Part shown: positions 13,960 to 19,292 of the stretch, one piece after another | How the letters are laid out: each line of letters starts with the position of its first letter | How positions within the stretch are numbered: position 1 is the first letter of the stretch | Assembly (NCBI GenBank): GCA_964347615.1 | Contig: CAYFZO010000002.1 | Span: 22,261-86,260 of the forward strand | From: an uncultured Chromatiales bacterium | Lineage (GTDB): Bacteria; Pseudomonadota; Gammaproteobacteria; Poriferisulfidales; Oxydemutatoraceae | DNA: 64,000 nucleotides | Direction of reading: 5' to 3' | Notes under the pieces: generated by a model | Told to the model about the DNA's origin: nothing | The model's input: the letters and a program-made list of their open reading frames with translations, nothing else | Database searches by the model: none | Program-made: the position numbers and the translations under genes

Positions 13960-14312
13960 TTCGCGCGGTTTGACGGGCGCTTGAACCACGCCGGAGCAGT
14001 GCCGGAATCGCCGCCCGGCCGTCGGGCCGGATGGACCCGGGCAACGCGGGAGCGCCCCGACCTCCCGGAACGGGGCAAGCGAGGCCGGTGCCGGCGGGAA
14101 TCTGCATCAGGAAGCATCGACCGGGTCCCGATCCGGCTCTGAGGCAAGGCTTTATCGCCTCAAAATCAAAGGCTGTTAAATCAAGACATTATCACAGCCT
14201 TGCGACCTGAGGCCCATACAGGCACTTGCACACGTTGGGCATAAGTTGTAAAAAGCGTGCGCCCAAAACAAGCCGACCAACCGAATAAGGCCAAACCAAT
14301 AAGGAAACTGTA

Positions 14313-15185
14313 ATGCCCGTAAAAAAGGCCAAAAAAAGCAAAACCAAAAGCGCGAGAAAGACCGTCTCGCCGCGGAAAAAGACCGTCAAGAAAAAGGCGG
14401 TGCGCAAAAAAACCCGCAGCGCGGTCAGGAAAAAAAGCGCGACCGCGAAGAGAAAAACCGCAAGGAAAAGCGTGAAAAAAGGCGCCGCCAAAAGGCGAAC
14501 CGCGTCTTCCGCCAAGAGAACCGTCCGTAAGAAGACCGCCCGCAAGAAGGTTGTCCGCAAGAAAGTCACCAAGAAAGTCGCCCAGAAAGTCACCAAGAGT
14601 GCGGCAAAAAAGAAAAAGGTCGCCAAGACGGCGAAGCGAAAGCCAGCACCCAAAAAGAAAACCGCAGCCAAGAAAAAGGCCGCTTTGAAACCACGCCGCG
14701 CGGCGACCAAACCGAGAAAACAACCACGAAAAAAACCAGGGGCGCGCATGCTCAAGCCCAAGGAAGAAAACGCGTCGCTCAGGCCGTCCAAGGCCTATCA
14801 GATCAAAAAAGGCGAACCCTACATGAACTCCCAGCAGCTAGAACACTTCAGTAAGATGCTGTTGGATTGGAAGAAAGAGCTGATGAAAGAGGTGGACAGG
14901 ACGGTTGATCACATGAAGTCTGGCGCCACCAACTTCGCCGACCCTGCCGACCGGGCGACTCAGGAGGAAGAATTCAGCCTGGAGTTGAGAACCCGCGACC
15001 GGGAAAGAAAGCTGATCAAGAAAATTGACGAGGCGCTGGGCATGATGGACATGGATGAATACGGCTATTGCAGCTCATGCGGCGCCGAAATCGGCGTGCG
15101 GCGACTCGAAGCACGCCCGACCGCAACGCTTTGCATCGACTGCAAAACGATGCAGGAAATCAAAGAGAAACAGATTGCTGACTAG
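14313..15185 (+). CDS. dksA: DksA-family RNA polymerase-binding transcription factor with an N-terminal ~145-aa lysine/alanine/arginine-rich histone H1-like extension
   Basis: The C-terminal 140 aa aligns closely to E. coli DksA. Shared elements are the coiled-coil tip motif DRATQEEEFSLELRTRDRERKLIKKID and the C4 zinc finger CSSCGAEI...CIDC. The N-terminal part is AKKSKTKSARK...KKKK low complexity. A good RBS (AAGGAAA) sits 7 nt upstream of the 14313 ATG. The internal Met at about 14754 (MLKPKEEN) could give a canonical-length isoform. Confidence 0.8.
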   Translation: MPVKKAKKSKTKSARKTVSPRKKTVKKKAVRKKTRSAVRKKSATAKRKTARKSVKKGAAKRRTASSAKRTVRKKTARKKVVRKKVTKKVAQKVTKSAAKKKKVAKTAKRKPAPKKKTAAKKKAALKPRRAATKPRKQPRKKPGARMLKPKEENASLRPSKAYQIKKGEPYMNSQQLEHFSKMLLDWKKELMKEVDRTVDHMKSGATNFADPADRATQEEEFSLELRTRDRERKLIKKIDEALGMMDMDEYGYCSSCGAEIGVRRLEARPTATLCIDCKTMQEIKEKQIAD

Positions 15186-15263
15186 GGGGCCGACTAGGGG
15201 GCCGACCAGGGGGCCGACCAGGGGGCCGACCAGGGGGCCGACCAGGGGGCCGACTAGGGGCTG
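15180..15263 (+). repeat. 12-nt tandem repeat (GAC[T/C]AGGGGGCC) x7, in frame with and containing the dksA stop codon
   Basis: Seven head-to-tail units. Position 4 of each unit is T (making TAG) in units 1, 2 and 7, and C (making CAG) in units 3-6. The first TAG is the dksA stop codon. Confidence 0.9.
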
Positions 15264-15370: not shown

Positions 15371-15592
15371 TCAACTCTCCTGATCCTGATCCTTCAGCCA
15401 CTGCCACGGAGTCTCTTTCACGATCAGGAAATAAATCCAGATGTTGCCGACCACTGCGATCAGAAGCAGCACCGCGGCCCCCAAGCTCCACAGCACGTTG
15501 TGCATCACGTCCCGAAAGCCGATGAACTCCATCAGTGCCCATATCGCGAAAGACCAAACCGCCATGGCGGCAAAAGCTGTTAAGGTTTTCAT
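15371..15592 (-). CDS. small 2-TM membrane protein of unknown function, last gene of the monooxygenase cluster
   Basis: I place the start at MKTLTAFAAMAVWSFAIWALMEF, with a strong RBS GGGGAGAA upstream. It has two hydrophobic helices and lies 30 nt downstream of the reductase stop. Confidence 0.45.
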   Translation of the reverse strand: MKTLTAFAAMAVWSFAIWALMEFIGFRDVMHNVLWSLGAAVLLLIAVVGNIWIYFLIVKETPWQWLKDQDQES

Positions 15593-15622
15593 GTTCTCCC
15601 CCTTGGTTGTCAAACCGTCGTG

Positions 15623-16750
15623 CTAGCGCCCGCCCGGTATCGTGCTTGCGTCCAAAAACTTATCATAGAAAATACTTTCTTCGCAAAGCCCGGCTTCGGT
15701 CAGCGCCTTGATGCCCGCGTCTATCATCGGAGGCGGGCCGCACATGTAAGCTTGGCAAACCGTGACGTCAAGCAGACCGGGTTCGATGTAACGGCGGTGG
15801 AGATGCTCGGTGACAAACCCCCGCGGCCCGTCCCAGTCGCTGTCGTCCGGCTCGTTGGAAAGCACGAATTCAAACTCGAATTTATGGTCTTTATGCCAGT
15901 TTGAACGGATCTTTTCCATTTCCTCCCGGCAATAAATATCGGCCTGGGTGCGTGCACCGAACAAAAACACCGCGTCGCGTTGAATCTGGTCGTTGCACGC
16001 GGCTTCGAGCACCGCCTTGACCGCGCTCATGCCGCTGCCGCCGGCGATGCAAATCATCGGTGTGTCGCCGTCGCGCAGATAAAAATTGCCGTAGGGCGCC
16101 ACCACCGTCAAACGCGTCCCTTCACGGTTTTCGCCGAACAGCCACTCGGTGAACTCTCCGCCGGGGACAAGCCGCACGTAAAAGGTAACTTCTCCCTGGT
16201 TTTCGTTCTCGGGCGCTTTGGCGAACGAATAACTGCGTGGTTTGCTCAAGCCCGGGTATGAAATCTCCGCGTACTGCCCGGCCAAGACCCCGGCGGGAAT
16301 CGGCTCGTCGCAAACAATCGTCATCTCCATGATGTCGTGGGTCAGGCGGCGCGCGGAATTCAAGCTGCCTTCCCGGGTCACGACCGCAATCTTGCCGCTC
16401 TCCTCGAGCTCGACTTCGACCGCAACGTCACTTTTCAGCGCGGTCTGGCAGGCCAGGATCATGCCCTGGTTCAGCTGTTCAGGCGTCAAGACGTAGGAAA
16501 AGTCGTTGAGTGCCTTGATCTTGCCTTCCTTCAAGAAGCACCTGCACGTGCCGCAGCTGCCGACCCTGCAATCGTGCGGCCAATCAAGTCCCGCGGCGAG
16601 CCCCGCGGCAAGCAGGTTTTCACCGGCTTTCACGGTCAGCTCGTGTTCCGAGTTGATTGTCGCTCGCCAATCTTTTTTCTTAAACAGTCCAAACACCGTG
16701 AATAAAACCGCTGAAGTTAACCTCACTGCACGGGACACGCGCTTTCCCAA
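15623..16750 (-). CDS. XylA/CymAb-type monooxygenase reductase (N-terminal plant-type [2Fe-2S] ferredoxin fused to ferredoxin-NAD(P)+ reductase)
   Basis: N-terminal CxxxxCxxC...C motif (CRVGSCGTCRC...ILACQ), FAD-binding RSYSFA motif and NAD-binding ICIAGGSGMSAV motif. There is an unusual hydrophobic segment at the extreme N-terminus (LTSAVLFTVFGLF). Confidence 0.8.
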   Translation of the reverse strand: MGKRVSRAVRLTSAVLFTVFGLFKKKDWRATINSEHELTVKAGENLLAAGLAAGLDWPHDCRVGSCGTCRCFLKEGKIKALNDFSYVLTPEQLNQGMILACQTALKSDVAVEVELEESGKIAVVTREGSLNSARRLTHDIMEMTIVCDEPIPAGVLAGQYAEISYPGLSKPRSYSFAKAPENENQGEVTFYVRLVPGGEFTEWLFGENREGTRLTVVAPYGNFYLRDGDTPMICIAGGSGMSAVKAVLEAACNDQIQRDAVFLFGARTQADIYCREEMEKIRSNWHKDHKFEFEFVLSNEPDDSDWDGPRGFVTEHLHRRYIEPGLLDVTVCQAYMCGPPPMIDAGIKALTEAGLCEESIFYDKFLDASTIPGGR

Positions 16751-16838
16751 AAATAAAAGCGCCTGAGCCCATGATAAATGAGATCAAGCGCTTTTAGAAC
16801 AGAGCTTCACGCCCGAAAAGCTTCCGCCCGGGATAAAC

Positions 16839-17498
16839 CTAGACGTTGATAGAGATATCCCGCAACCGCCCTTCCTGCATGTCGTCCGCCGTCGGGACCG
16901 TCGTGAACGGAATGATTTTCTCCTTGCTCGTGCTCGGATGGCTCTTCACTTTCTCAAACCACGCGCTGATAGCGGGTTTCGAATTGACCACGTCGGCACG
17001 TCCCTTGACGTGCAGCATATTGGCGCACGCCGACCAATGAATGTCGGCCAAGGAAAAGTCACCGCATATAAAATCGCCTTTTTTCGGCGGGTTGGCGATT
17101 TGCTTGTCCAATGCGTCGAGAATCGGAGCAAGCTCCGAAACGGAGTCGTCGGCAATCATCTGCTGCGCCCGTCCCATCGCGACGGTAATCCACTGATACA
17201 TGATTGCGCGGTGAACACCGTTTCTCGGCACCAGCGACGGACCGAAACCCTTGTCGTCAAGGTATGACATCACGGCCAAAGTGCCGTAGACCGCATATTT
17301 GATGTCTCTCAGGGCCGGTGCTACCCCGAGAGGGGAAGTGCCGCTGAAATCGGAATCGGCGCCGGCGCTGTTCGGGTCAATCACCTTGGCTTCAATGTCC
17401 ACGCCTTTCTCGGCGGCGGTCTGCAAACATTTGGCAGTATCGATGCACTTGGGGTGCCCGTAAATCAACATCCGATTCCGTAACTGATCGCCAATCAT
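16839..17498 (-). CDS. glutathione S-transferase-like protein
   Basis: GST fold. The N-terminal thioredoxin-like part has a Cys (HPKC) near the usual catalytic position, and the C-terminal helical domain carries the DFSLADI motif. The start may be the internal MLIYGHPKC. Confidence 0.55.
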   Translation of the reverse strand: MIGDQLRNRMLIYGHPKCIDTAKCLQTAAEKGVDIEAKVIDPNSAGADSDFSGTSPLGVAPALRDIKYAVYGTLAVMSYLDDKGFGPSLVPRNGVHRAIMYQWITVAMGRAQQMIADDSVSELAPILDALDKQIANPPKKGDFICGDFSLADIHWSACANMLHVKGRADVVNSKPAISAWFEKVKSHPSTSKEKIIPFTTVPTADDMQEGRLRDISINV

Positions 17499-17606
17499 CT
17501 CAAAACGCCTCCTTTTTCTGGCTGGTCATCAAGAACACCGCCGCTTCAGCTACGGCGGCGCACGGGTCGCTGCGCCCGGCAGCTCCCAGCTGGCAAAACG
17601 CCGCGC

Positions 17607-17789
17607 TTAGCTCTCGTGTACGGTCAGTGCACCGGACGGGCACAGCTTGACCGTTTCACGAATGACTTCTTCGCTGGCGCCACTTTGGTCGATTACAAAC
17701 TTACCGTCCTCAACCTTGAACACGGTAGGCAGGTTCTCGACGCACTTACCCGCGTGGATGCAGGTGCCCTCGTCCCATCTTACTTCCAT
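17607..17789 (-). CDS. divergent 4Fe-4S mono-cluster (Fer4_19/DUF1271-like) small iron-sulfur protein
   Basis: 60 aa with the Cys pattern C-x-H-x-x-x-C...C-P (GTCIHAGKC...KLCPSGAL) typical of the divergent mono-cluster ferredoxin family. Confidence 0.5.
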   Translation of the reverse strand: MEVRWDEGTCIHAGKCVENLPTVFKVEDGKFVIDQSGASEEVIRETVKLCPSGALTVHES

Positions 17790-17940
17790 TGTCGGTATCC
17801 TCCATATATATCAAAACGAATAGGCACAAAAGTCCTTTCCGTCGTTATCGCTCCGGAACGACCCGCCCCGGAGGCAAAAGCACGGGTCCCGGGGGCAACC
17901 CCGAGACCCGCGATTTCTACCACGTCGGCCCGGTGAACCC

Positions 17941-19083
17941 TCAGGCGTAGCCCGCCTGCTTGTTCATCAGGTCCGCAATCCGTCGCTCGCCTTCAGAAGC
18001 CTCCTGCTCGTCCCACTTCTTCAACTGCTTCTGCATCATGGTGTGGAACAGCATCGGCAACAGCGCCACGCCGAACAACGCAAAATAGCCGTAGCCCGTG
18101 TTCGGAGCGCCCACTTCGTCCAATTCCCAAAAGTGGGTCTCGCCTCGGTCGTGGTGATCCGCCTGACGACCGATCTCGATGAAATACCAACTCGTGAACG
18201 CCGTCGAGTTGTCCCACGAGTGGCGGTAGTCTATCGGCTGACCCTTCTCCCGGATCAGACCATAGTGCTCCATGTAGTTCAGCGCCTCCAACTCAAAGTT
18301 CGAAACCAACCACATCACCGCCAAGCACGCTATACCCGTCCACCCGCCGGCGAACCAGAACAGGAACAACGACGGAAGGCTCATCGCGTAGCCGCGAAGC
18401 CAACGATTCTGCCACGACAAAAACGGAACTCCCAGACGCTCCAAGCGTTGCTTCTCCATGCTGTACAGAAACTTCGACTGACCCAGGTGGGACTTCGGAA
18501 AGTGAAGGTAGATGCTGCGACCGCGCGGGGACGTCGCCGGATCGTCGTCGCAACCCAACTCCAGATGATGGTTGTATACGTGCGCGTAGCAAAAATGCGA
18601 CGAACAACTCAATCCCATCATCCACCGCGAAATCACGAAACTGAAGCCTTTCGTGTGCGCCAACTCGTGTCCGTAAATTATCCCGATCCCCATGAATATC
18701 GCCGAAGACAGCGCCGCGCCCGCCAGTTGCGAACCCGTGATCCCCTGATACACCGTGATGCCCAGAATCTCCATCGTCCCAAAAGGCACCGCGTTCACGT
18801 ATTCATACACTCGCCACGCCAGGTTCAACTGCAACAGAATGAAAACCGCAAGCATCAGATACATCACCGCGTTCTGAAACGCCGGTATCCCATACAACTC
18901 GCCGTCCTCGTCGAAACCCGCGCCCATCGTGCGCCACGGCGTCAATGCGTCCAGCACAATCGCCATACCGAGCATATACACGCCCAGCCATACCCACGGG
19001 CCGCCTATGAATACGCCGTACATGCCCAGCACAATCGAAATCGGCGCCAGCATGTAACGACCGTTAATCAGGAACTTCTTCAT
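17941..19083 (-). CDS. AlkB/XylM-family integral-membrane non-heme diiron monooxygenase (alkane/xylene/p-cymene hydroxylase-like)
   Basis: Carries the histidine boxes HELAHTKG and HVYNHH. Also carries the AlkB-family signature NYMEHYGL and the ADHHDRG box, with multiple TM helices. I set the start at the ATG at 19081-19083 (MKKFLINGRY), which has a GGAGG RBS. Confidence 0.85.
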   Translation of the reverse strand: MKKFLINGRYMLAPISIVLGMYGVFIGGPWVWLGVYMLGMAIVLDALTPWRTMGAGFDEDGELYGIPAFQNAVMYLMLAVFILLQLNLAWRVYEYVNAVPFGTMEILGITVYQGITGSQLAGAALSSAIFMGIGIIYGHELAHTKGFSFVISRWMMGLSCSSHFCYAHVYNHHLELGCDDDPATSPRGRSIYLHFPKSHLGQSKFLYSMEKQRLERLGVPFLSWQNRWLRGYAMSLPSLFLFWFAGGWTGIACLAVMWLVSNFELEALNYMEHYGLIREKGQPIDYRHSWDNSTAFTSWYFIEIGRQADHHDRGETHFWELDEVGAPNTGYGYFALFGVALLPMLFHTMMQKQLKKWDEQEASEGERRIADLMNKQAGYA

Positions 19084-19292
19084 CGTTAAGCCTCCAGCTT
19101 GTTTACGTTGTTTATGAGGTTTGTTCTCTGTTTCCGGGAGGATTCGGAACCCAGCCCGACGTATAAAAGAGAGTGCCGTTCGGCACCCGCTTAATCTCAA
19201 TTGCATACCACAATTGCCCGACTACATCCAAGCATACATGCAAAAGCCTCTATATAACAATTGGTTAAGCTTGTGAATATCAGGCGGCAACC

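What the first reader, a model, noticed from the sequence alone, without database searches (positions are those of the whole stretch)
14313..15185. DksA fused to a ~145-aa histone H1-like lysine-rich N-terminal tail
The C-terminal 140 residues are a textbook DksA (the coiled-coil tip motif DRATQEEEFSLELRTRDRERKLIKKID and the Cys4 zinc finger CSSCGAEI...CIDC). The ORF begins 440 nt earlier at an ATG with an excellent RBS. The extra stretch encodes a low-complexity tail that is more than 45% Lys/Arg and rich in Ala, resembling eukaryotic H1 C-terminal domains, AlgP or Hc1. Canonical DksA binds the RNAP secondary channel and has no DNA-binding domain. A polycationic nucleic-acid-binding tail could tether it to the nucleoid or to rRNA. 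The internal Met at MLKPKEEN is preceded by a weak AGGGG. Both a long isoform and a canonical-length isoform may therefore be made.
Basis: seen in the sequence. Interest (0 to 1): 0.65.

Follow-up and report, generated by a model that had tools for sequence, protein, structure and literature searches.

The report
DksA with a lysine-rich disordered tail
This is a genuine gene for the transcription factor DksA with a 145-residue, highly positively charged, disordered N-terminal tail; the tail is real and under selection, but the design is common in Gammaproteobacteria and has published precedents, so it is interesting background rather than a discovery.

Summary
ORF 14313..15185 (+) encodes 290 aa. 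Residues 160-289 are 65% identical to E. coli DksA, with every tip, zinc-finger and ppGpp-site residue kept. Residues 1-145 are 48% Lys+Arg, have no Asp or Glu, carry a net charge of about +69, and are predicted disordered.

The tail is coding. Against a 72%-identical orthologue its dN/dS is 0.13 (core 0.10). All indels between strains and orthologues are whole codons. The ATG and its Shine-Dalgarno site are conserved. Synteny shows these genes are orthologues.

The design is not rare. In a core-only search, 113 of the 150 best representatives have extensions of 40 aa or more, and 59 of those are K/R-rich. It has precedent: Streptomyces DdbA (H1-like domain plus DksA-like domain, binds DNA in EMSA), and Xanthomonas euvesicatoria DksA, re-annotated from 147 to 256 aa using the MS peptide AAPAAAKPAAKPVASK and start-codon mutagenesis.

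The tail belongs to no curated H1, Hc2 or AlgP family. It resembles them in composition only.

The two-isoform idea stays open. The junction Met is kept only in this small clade, and its SD-like G-run decays in more distant orthologues.

Verdict: a real gene, a new member of a known but little-studied architecture. Tail function is inferred, not shown.

The parts
14160..14285 (+). Conserved non-coding block upstream of the long ORF; candidate promoter or 5' leader for the long form
   Evidence: It is nearly invariant among strains L081, L082 and L083, while the neighbouring stretch 13960-14160 carries many substitutions. The consensus scan called no sigma-70 site here, so the promoter assignment is inferred.
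14301..14306 (+). Shine-Dalgarno site (AAGGAA) of the long form, 7 nt before the ATG
   Evidence: Duplex energy with the anti-SD is -6.2 kcal/mol. An AGGA/GGGA-type site is kept in L081, L082 and L001. A duplication of about 15 nt just upstream (AATAAGG twice, 14284-14304) is present in the window and L083 only.
14313..14747 (+). Coding region of the polycationic, predicted disordered N-terminal tail (aa 1-145)
   Evidence: Composition: 48% K+R, no D/E, charge about +69. Selection: dN/dS 0.126 against L001, whole-codon indels only. Structure: pLDDT below 50 and no secondary structure for aa 1-134.
14558..14598 (+). Internal 12-nt tandem repeat (AAGAAAGTCACC, encoding VTKK-type units) that varies in copy number between strains
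   Evidence: TRF finds period 12 with 3.4 copies. L081 lacks one unit and L082 lacks two, giving proteins of 286 and 282 aa.
14738..14750 (+). Candidate internal start: AGGGG followed by ATG (Met146), which would give a canonical-length DksA of 145 aa
   Evidence: SD-like duplex energy is -5.7 kcal/mol here and -8.6 in L001, but only -2.2 to -4.2 in L084-L086. The Met is kept in the clade as ARM[LIV]KP, but P0011 has Ile there, and 107 of 170 long forms have no Met near the junction. Use of this start is unproven.
14748..15182 (+). DksA core (aa 146-290): linker, coiled-coil hairpin with DxxDxA tip, Cys4 zinc finger and C-terminal helix
   Evidence: Matches E. coli DksA 1TJL residues 21-150 at E=1.3e-52, 84/130 identical. 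D71, D74, A76, R91, L95, K98, R125, R129, K139 and all four Cys are conserved. AF2 places helices at 173-205, 211-246 and 275-289.
15183..15185 (+). Stop codon TAG, lying inside the first unit of the downstream repeat
15180..15260 (+). 12-nt variable-number tandem repeat GAC[C/T]AGGGGGCC immediately 3' of the gene
   Evidence: 6.8 copies at 97% match. It is unique in the window (6 matches against 0.41 expected). Copy number differs between strains. Its function is unknown and it is probably not part of the protein.

Best explanation
One gene makes one main product: a 290-aa DksA translated from ATG 14313.

The C-terminal 130-145 residues are an orthodox DksA. They bind the RNA polymerase secondary channel with the DxxDxA coiled-coil tip and form ppGpp site 2. 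This is shown here at the level of sequence conservation. It is inferred at the level of activity.

The N-terminal 145 residues are an intrinsically disordered polycation of about +69 charge. It evolves quickly in sequence and length by gain and loss of short repeats, but it is kept lysine-rich and free of acidic residues.

The most likely role of the tail is non-specific electrostatic binding to DNA, and probably to other polyanions. This would make DksA a nucleoid-associated protein and raise its local concentration around transcribing RNA polymerase. This is inferred by analogy with Streptomyces DdbA, whose H1-like N-terminal domain alone shifts DNA in EMSA.

From established knowledge of the E. 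coli RNAP-DksA structures (not tested here), the N-terminus of DksA lies on the globular domain outside the channel. An N-terminal appendage should therefore not block polymerase binding.
For: DksA identity:
- establish it: TIGR02420 scores 165 bits (cutoff 115.5), identity to 1TJL is 65%, and all functional residues are kept.

Translation of the tail:
- The ATG and SD are conserved.
- Indels are whole codons only, in strains and orthologues.
- dN/dS is 0.126 in the tail against 0.103 in the core. The four other non-shadow frames give 1.3-2.0.
- The tail fills almost all of the xseA-dksA spacer in syntenic orthologues.
- In genomes without a tail, the frame closes 15-50 codons upstream of the core. 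In tail-bearing lineages it stays open for 100-270 codons.

Conservation of the property rather than the sequence:
- 120 of 120 biased hits and 113 of 150 core-only hits have an extension of 40 aa or more. 59 of the 150 also have K+R of at least 25%.

Disorder:
- AF2 gives pLDDT below 50 for aa 1-134.

Experimental precedent:
- DdbA's N-terminal domain binds DNA, and DdbA overexpression suppresses relA phenotypes (PMC3643593).
- The Xanthomonas DksA extension was proven translated by the MS peptide AAPAAAKPAAKPVASK and by start-codon mutagenesis (PMC5559785).
- The H1-like tails of AlgP and PhaF bind DNA (PMC9239181 and PMC11894788).
Against: - No experiment exists for this protein or its clade. 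DNA binding and nucleoid localisation rest on analogy and on charge.
- The tail passes no curated histone-like family threshold.
- dN/dS and stop counts cannot separate the sense frame from its wobble-aligned antisense shadow (0.126 against 0.149). The choice of the sense frame rests on continuity with the core, the conserved start and SD, the conserved K-rich composition and the Xanthomonas proteomics.
- The promoter is not mapped, and the consensus scan found none.
- A tail this cationic would also bind RNA, ribosomes and polyphosphate, so DNA may not be the relevant ligand.
Confidence: 0.6

Rival explanations
1. Two isoforms are made. One is the long tailed DksA. The other is a canonical-length DksA, produced either by internal initiation at Met146 or by proteolytic removal of the tail. 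The ratio of the two would tune how much DksA is tethered and how much is free. This is compatible with the best explanation and adds to it.
For: - ATG 14748 is preceded by an SD-like G-run (-5.7 kcal/mol here, -8.6 in L001).
- Met146 aligns with residue 7 of E. coli DksA, so the short product would be canonical in size.
- The Met is kept in eight clade members.
- In Xanthomonas euvesicatoria a shorter 'processed variant' was seen alongside the full-length protein (PMC5559785).
Against: - P0011 has Ile at that position, and 107 of 170 long K/R-rich DksAs have no Met near the junction.
- The SD-like element weakens to between -2.2 and -4.2 kcal/mol in L084-L086, although the Met is kept. The Met may therefore simply be part of the peptide motif ARM[LIV]KP.
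- No promoter-like site lies inside the tail.
Confidence: 0.25
2. The tail's relevant ligand is not DNA but polyphosphate or RNA. During starvation, polyphosphate would sequester tailed DksA in granules or condensates, or would hand it to the Lon protease. DksA availability would then depend on polyphosphate levels.
For: - AlgP, a +55 lysine-rich H1-like protein, is enriched on polyphosphate granules and localises to them (PMC9239181).
- Lysine-rich sequences bind polyphosphate non-covalently (PMC12077175 abstract).
- DksA is genetically linked to polyphosphate accumulation in E. coli (Gray 2019, seen only as a reference).
- The window tail carries about +69 charge and no acidic residues.
- From my own knowledge, not checked here: polyphosphate-Lon degrades lysine-rich ribosomal proteins (Kuroda et al. 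2001).
Against: This is entirely analogical. Nothing in the window links the gene to ppk, ppx or lon. The tail lacks the KPAA repeats of AlgP and PhaF. DdbA, the closest architectural precedent, was shown to bind DNA.
Confidence: 0.15
3. Only the canonical DksA is made, from Met146. The upstream 435 nt would be an A-rich untranslated leader whose open frame is an accident of its T-poor composition.
For: 3.9% of shuffles of the tail sequence are also open in frame 0. The promoter is unmapped. Older annotations of Xanthomonas made exactly this call, at 147 aa.
Against: - dN/dS is 0.126, with 43 of 68 differences at codon position 3 (p=4e-7).
- All indels are multiples of 3.
- The ATG and SD are conserved.
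- K-rich open extensions recur in hundreds of divergent lineages with unrelated DNA sequence.
- The Xanthomonas short annotation was overturned by MS and mutagenesis.
Confidence: 0.04
4. The real gene under the tail region is the antisense ORF 14192..14791 (-, 199 aa, Phe/Leu-rich), and the sense openness is its shadow.
For: This antisense frame is open in 11 of 12 orthologues, and its dN/dS (0.149) is close to that of the sense frame.
Against: - Its openness is forced by the sense composition. Its stops need a sense codon starting TA or CA (Tyr, His or Gln), and such codons are almost absent from the tail.
- It starts with TTG inside the DksA core.
- The sense frame is continuous with DksA and has a conserved ATG and SD.
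- In Xanthomonas the equivalent antisense gene, XCV2557, yielded no peptides and was proposed for deletion.
Confidence: 0.02

Closest known systems
Streptomyces coelicolor DdbA (SCO2075), Aldridge et al. 2013, PMC3643593
   Same: The two-part design is the same: an N-terminal, highly basic, Lys/Ala-rich H1-like region, then a C-terminal DksA-type coiled coil with two tip aspartates and a Cys4 zinc finger. The tail length varies between orthologues. DdbA's N-terminal domain binds and condenses DNA, and its overexpression suppresses relA phenotypes.
   Different: DdbA's C-terminal half is only distantly DksA-like (BLASTP E=8e-11 to E. coli DksA according to the paper). The window core is 65% identical to E. 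coli DksA and passes the DksA equivalog model. DdbA's tail is 93 aa with S/T-A-A-K-K repeats and pI 10.5. The window tail is 145 aa with pI 12. The authors found orthologues only in streptomycetes, so the gammaproteobacterial fusion is most likely an independent acquisition (inference).
Xanthomonas euvesicatoria DksA, long form (256 aa), PMC5559785
   Same: It is a gammaproteobacterial bona fide DksA whose true start lies more than 100 codons upstream of the originally annotated one. The extension is Ala/Lys/Pro-rich (peptide AAPAAAKPAAKPVASK). A shadow ORF had been annotated on the opposite strand. A shorter processed species was also observed.
   Different: Its start is GTG rather than ATG. 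Its tail is shorter (about 109 aa) and of the AlgP-like KPAA type, not the K/R/T/V-rich type seen here. The function of the tail was not studied.
Canonical E. coli DksA (151 aa; PDB 1TJL, 5VSW, 5W1T)
   Same: Residues 160-289 align without gaps to DksA 21-150. The tip DxxDxA, the Cys4 finger and the basic residues R91, K98, R125, R129 and K139 are all kept. The predicted fold has the coiled-coil hairpin and the C-terminal helix.
   Different: There are 139 extra N-terminal residues. N88 is replaced by Thr. The gene lies next to xseA rather than upstream of gluQ.
Bacterial H1-like polycationic tails: AlgP and PhaF (Pseudomonas), Hc1 and Hc2 (Chlamydia), Burkholderia/Bordetella H1-like proteins
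   Same: All are Lys/Ala-rich, intrinsically disordered and repeat-driven, with length variation between strains. All are expected to bind polyanions.
   Different: None of their family models is matched: NF038053 scores 10.2 bits (cutoff 80) and NF038052 scores 9.6 bits (cutoff 135), and Pfam HC2 gives no hit for the window protein. There are no KPAA or S/TPKK repeats. The tail is N-terminal to an RNAP-binding module, not C-terminal to a coiled coil or a phasin.

Membership tests
DksA (RNA polymerase-binding transcription factor; TIGR02420, PF21157 + PF01258) | Passes the curated family thresholds for the DksA_N and DksA/TraR zinc-finger domains | tested here: met
   TIGR02420 scores 165.4 bits against a cutoff of 115.5. 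PF21157 scores 113.7 against 27. PF01258 scores 43.8 against 24.9. The stricter enterobacterial model NF008045 (198 bits against 289) is not passed, as expected for a non-enteric orthologue.
DksA | Coiled-coil tip motif DxxDxA (E. coli D71, D74, A76) | tested here: met
   D210, D213 and A215 align to D71, D74 and A76.
DksA | Cys4 zinc finger (E. coli C114, C117, C135, C138) | tested here: met
   C253, C256, C274 and C277.
DksA | Basic residues that contribute to ppGpp site 2 and RNAP contacts (R91, L95, K98, R125, R129, K139). The residue list comes from my knowledge of the E. coli literature. | tested here: met
   All are identical in the window protein, at 230, 234, 237, 264, 268 and 278.
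DksA | Binds the RNAP secondary channel and potentiates ppGpp | not testable with these tools
   Needs in vitro transcription, or complementation of a dksA mutant.
Histone H1-like / Hc2 DNA-binding proteins (PF07382; NCBIfam NF038052, NF038053) | Passes the family model threshold | tested here: not met
   NF038053 scores 10.2 bits (cutoff 80) and NF038052 scores 9.6 bits (cutoff 135). PF07382 gives no hit at E<=1 for the window protein. Some relatives do carry a precomputed PF07382 hit.
Histone H1 C-terminal-domain-like tails | Lys/Ala-rich, acid-free, disordered composition | tested here: met
   35% K, 17% A, no D/E. pLDDT is below 50 and no secondary structure is predicted.
Histone H1 C-terminal-domain-like tails | S/TPKK-type repeats | tested here: not met
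   There are 0 matches to [ST]PKK in the tail.
AlgP / PhaF-type tails | Tandem KPAA (AAKP) repeats | tested here: not met
   The tail sequence contains no KPAA (read directly). Other long DksAs do have such repeats, for example P0130 and the Xanthomonas peptide.
DdbA (Streptomyces SCO2075 orthologue group) | Orthology to SCO2075 | not tested
The paper reports orthologues only in streptomycetes. The window core is an orthologue of proteobacterial DksA, so the two share an architecture, not membership.
DdbA-like architecture (basic tail plus DksA-type domain) | N-terminal polycationic low-complexity region directly fused to a DksA-type coiled coil and zinc finger | tested here: met
DdbA-like architecture | The tail binds DNA | not testable with these tools
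   Needs EMSA or in vivo localisation.

The most novel reading that the evidence does not exclude
Tailed DksA may be a recurrently evolved device that physically couples the stringent-response cofactor to a cellular polyanion: the nucleoid, nascent rRNA or polyphosphate condensates. Release of a canonical DksA core, by internal initiation or by polyphosphate/Lon-type processing at the conserved junction, would then act as a starvation switch that sets how much DksA can reach RNA polymerase. That would be a layer of stringent control absent from E. coli, present across many environmental Gammaproteobacteria and convergent with Streptomyces DdbA.
Probability: 0.1. Interest if true: 0.65.

Novelty: new member of a known kind. 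Interest (0 to 1): 0.3.

Why it matters
Almost all mechanistic knowledge of DksA comes from the 151-aa E. coli protein. The data here show that a large share of gammaproteobacterial DksA sequence clusters carry long, fast-evolving polycationic tails. In the held literature, only one paper (Xanthomonas) proves that such a tail is translated, and only one (Streptomyces DdbA) tests what such a tail does.

If the tail localises DksA to the nucleoid or to polyphosphate, models of stringent control derived from E. coli would need adjusting for many environmental and plant-pathogenic bacteria.

There is also a practical point for annotation. Start-codon callers can truncate these genes, or can call the wobble-aligned antisense shadow ORF instead, as happened in Xanthomonas.

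For this particular window the result is modest. It is a correctly read gene of a common, already exemplified type.

Tried and rejected
- Naming the organism failed. The listing of cluster members returned no names for ten relatives. The genome-contig scan did not contain the species; the nearest hit is an uncultured Chromatiales MAG at 72% identity. Rfam found no rRNA or any other RNA family in the window.
- The sigma-70 consensus scan found no promoter, either upstream of the ORF or inside the tail. Transcript structure therefore remains inferred from conservation.
- Stop-codon counts were meant to separate the sense frame from the antisense ORFs. They cannot, because the wobble-aligned antisense frame is open in 11 of 12 orthologues as a by-product of composition.
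- dN/dS per frame rejects four frames and neutrality, but not the shadow frame (0.149 against 0.126).
- The junction-Met test gave no general signal. The Met is specific to this clade. The SD-energy comparison was inconclusive.
- A second DksA or TraR paralogue, or another K-rich ORF, was looked for in the window. None was found.
- The core-only representative search over-counts long forms, because clustering at 50% identity splits fast-evolving tails into many clusters. I therefore do not give a true frequency.
- A fold search was not run. The sequence match to PDB 1TJL (E=1e-52) already settles the fold, and the tail is unmodellable.
- Three further literature searches found no additional description of long-form proteobacterial DksA.

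Full report
**1. Observation**

- An AAGGAA Shine-Dalgarno site sits 7 nt before the ATG, with a duplex energy of -6.2 kcal/mol against the anti-SD.
- The quoted DksA motifs are present.
- The internal Met is at 14748 (Met146), preceded by AGGGG.
- The first 145 residues are 35.2% Lys, 13.1% Arg and 17.2% Ala. They contain no Asp or Glu, have pI 12 and carry a net charge of about +69. The remaining 145 residues have pI 5.8.

**2. The C-terminal half is an orthodox DksA**
- Pfam finds DksA_N (aa 175-242, E=4.6e-33) and zf-dskA_traR (aa 250-279).
- The NCBIfam equivalog model TIGR02420 scores 165.4 bits against a cutoff of 115.5.
- Residues 160-289 align without gaps to residues 21-150 of E. coli DksA (PDB 1TJL) at E=1.3e-52, with 84 of 130 identical.
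- The tip residues D71, D74 and A76, the four zinc cysteines, and R91, L95, K98, R125, R129 and K139 are all identical.
- AlphaFold2 places the coiled-coil hairpin (helices 173-205 and 211-246), the zinc-finger strands and the C-terminal helix (275-289) at moderate to good confidence.

**3. Is the tail translated?**

The open frame alone is weak evidence. The stretch has only 5.5% T, and 3.9% of shuffles are also open. The comparative evidence is much stronger.

*Closely related strains.* Three syntenic loci were compared (L081 and L082 from one metagenome; L083 is identical to the window).
- They differ in the tail by deletions of exactly 12 and 24 nt, which are units of an AAGAAAGTCACC (VTKK) repeat.
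- The only other indel, about 15 nt, lies in the untranslated leader.
- The ATG and SD are kept.

*A 72%-identical orthologue.* This is L001, an uncultured Chromatiales MAG.
- Tail dN/dS is 0.126, against 0.103 for the core.
- 43 of 68 tail differences fall at codon position 3 (p=4e-7).
- The gaps are 1, 18, 4 and 4 whole codons.

*More distant orthologues.* L084, L085 and L086 have cores about 80-84% identical.
- They share the neighbourhood guaA-guaB | xseA-dksA | small membrane protein-reductase-GST-ferredoxin-desaturase-pnp.
- Their long ORF starts only about 115-150 nt after xseA.

*Species-representative genomes.* Where there is no tail (Pseudomonas, Thiothrix, Aeromonas), the frame closes 15-50 codons upstream of the core. 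In tail-bearing lineages (Chromatiales, Thiotrichales and Granulosicoccaceae MAGs) it stays open for 100-270 codons and begins with ATG.

**4. A control that matters: the antisense shadow ORF**

The minus-strand ORF 14192..14791 (199 aa) shares wobble positions with the sense frame.
- It is open in 11 of 12 orthologues, and its dN/dS is 0.149. Neither stop counts nor dN/dS can therefore separate it from the sense frame.
- Its openness is forced by the sense composition. Its stops need a sense codon starting TA or CA (Tyr, His or Gln), and such codons are nearly absent from the tail.
- The four other frames give dN/dS of 1.3-2.0 and are rejected.

The sense reading is preferred for four reasons:
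- It is continuous with DksA.
- It has a conserved ATG and SD.
- Its product keeps the same unusual composition across lineages with unrelated DNA.
- In Xanthomonas the sense frame yielded peptides, while the annotated antisense gene XCV2557 yielded none.

**5. How common is the architecture?**
- A full-length search returned thousands of DksA proteins of 200-330 aa. Some carry a precomputed Hc2 (PF07382) hit, and NCBI names one of them plainly as DksA (Methylohalomonas lacus, 277 aa). That search is biased by lysine-rich words in the query.
- An exhaustive core-only search of 1.84 billion representatives is not biased in that way. Of the 150 best hits, 113 have an extension of 40 aa or more, 59 of those have K+R of at least 25%, and 25 have at least 35%.
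- Clustering at 50% identity over-counts fast-diverging tails, so these numbers show the fusion is abundant but do not give a frequency.
- Tail types range from K/R/T/V-rich (this clade) to AlgP-like AAKP repeats (P0130). Some reach 450 aa (P0135, P0199), and P0199 also has an acidic segment.

**6. Literature**

Two precedents were found, and three further searches found nothing more.

*Streptomyces coelicolor DdbA (PMC3643593).*
- The N-terminal domain alone binds DNA in EMSA.
- Loss of the protein alters nucleoid condensation and supercoiling.
- Overexpression suppresses relA phenotypes.
- The authors considered the tail specific to streptomycetes.

*Xanthomonas euvesicatoria dksA (PMC5559785).*
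- It was re-annotated from 147 to 256 aa by proteogenomics.
- The diagnostic peptide is AAPAAAKPAAKPVASK.
- A processed shorter variant was seen.
- The extension is shared by X. citri and X. oryzae.

**7. What the tail is and is not**

It resembles H1 C-terminal domains, AlgP, PhaF and Hc2 in composition and in predicted disorder.

It does not belong to any of those families.
- The H1-like and Hc2 NCBIfam models score about 10 bits against cutoffs of 80-135.
- Pfam gives no HC2 hit.
- There are no S/TPKK or KPAA repeats.

It is best described as a lineage-specific low-complexity polycation that grows and shrinks by repeat slippage.

**8. Mechanism**

*Shown by sequence.* The core has everything needed for canonical DksA action.

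*Inferred.* The tail confers non-specific binding to DNA or other polyanions and makes DksA nucleoid-associated, as for DdbA. From the known RNAP-DksA structures (my knowledge, not tested here), the DksA N-terminus lies outside the secondary channel, so the tail should be sterically tolerated.

*Polyphosphate rival.* The relevant polyanion could instead be polyphosphate or RNA. AlgP, with a net charge of +55, sits on polyphosphate granules.

*Two-isoform idea.* This remains open.
- The Met is conserved in the window's small clade as ARM[LIV]KP, but it is Ile in P0011.
- 107 of 170 long forms have no Met near the junction.
- The SD-like G-run is good in the closest strains and weak in L084-L086.

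**9. Verdict**

It is a new member of an architecture that is abundant in sequence databases and has been exemplified experimentally twice. The function of the tail in bona fide proteobacterial DksA is unstudied, and that is the only real source of interest here. I score interest at 0.3.

Noticed in passing
window 15180-15260: A 12-nt tandem repeat, GAC[C/T]AGGGGGCC, with 6.8 copies starts inside the dksA stop codon. It is unique in the window. Copy number is 6.8 in the window and L083, about 2 in L081 and about 1 in L082. Read in frame it would encode (GADQ)n, interrupted by TAG in the first two units and the last. Its function is unknown.
   Followed up: partly
window 14284-14304: A duplication of about 15 nt in the dksA leader gives two AATAAGG motifs in the window and L083. 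L081 and L082 have a single copy. It lies directly at the ribosome-binding site and could alter translation efficiency.
   Followed up: partly
window 14558-14598: An internal 12-nt repeat (VTKK units) accounts for the 290, 286 and 282-aa strain variants. This is the same kind of repeat-number variation reported for the H1-like domain of AlgP.
   Followed up: yes
window 14181-14791, minus strand: Two long antisense ORFs (180 and 199 aa, Phe/Leu-rich) overlap the tail. They are compositional shadows of the lysine-rich sense frame, and gene callers could mis-annotate them, as happened with XCV2557 in Xanthomonas.
   Followed up: yes
window 15371-19206, minus strand: A gene cluster convergent with dksA and conserved in all orthologous loci. 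It comprises a small membrane protein with no Pfam hit, a Fer2/NAD-binding reductase, a GST-like protein, a small ferredoxin, and a membrane FA_desaturase-family protein (PF00487) whose histidine motifs look AlkB/XylM-like to me (not tested). It could be a hydrocarbon or lipid hydroxylase system.
   Followed up: no
proteins P0009-P0054: Another clade of long DksAs has a well-conserved linker, LIPDEPxVGxTLPVEGIDPY, between the K-rich tail and the core. This suggests a specific function at the junction, such as a docking or cleavage site.
   Followed up: no
proteins P0135, P0199: Some DksA homologues reach about 450 aa. In P0199 the K-rich region is followed by a strongly acidic Asp/Glu-rich segment before the core.
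   Followed up: no
proteins P0140, P0219: These are DksA cores followed by long Arg/Pro/Ala-rich C-terminal text. In P0219 that text contains a GluQ-RS-like motif. They are probably frameshift or read-through gene-call artefacts across the usual dksA-gluQ junction. In the window's clade, gluQ is not downstream of dksA.
   Followed up: no
window 13960-14160: The GC-rich (63-68%) first part of the 353-nt xseA-dksA spacer is much more variable between strains than the block next to it (14160-14285). In the more distant orthologues the spacer is only about 115-150 nt.
   Followed up: partly
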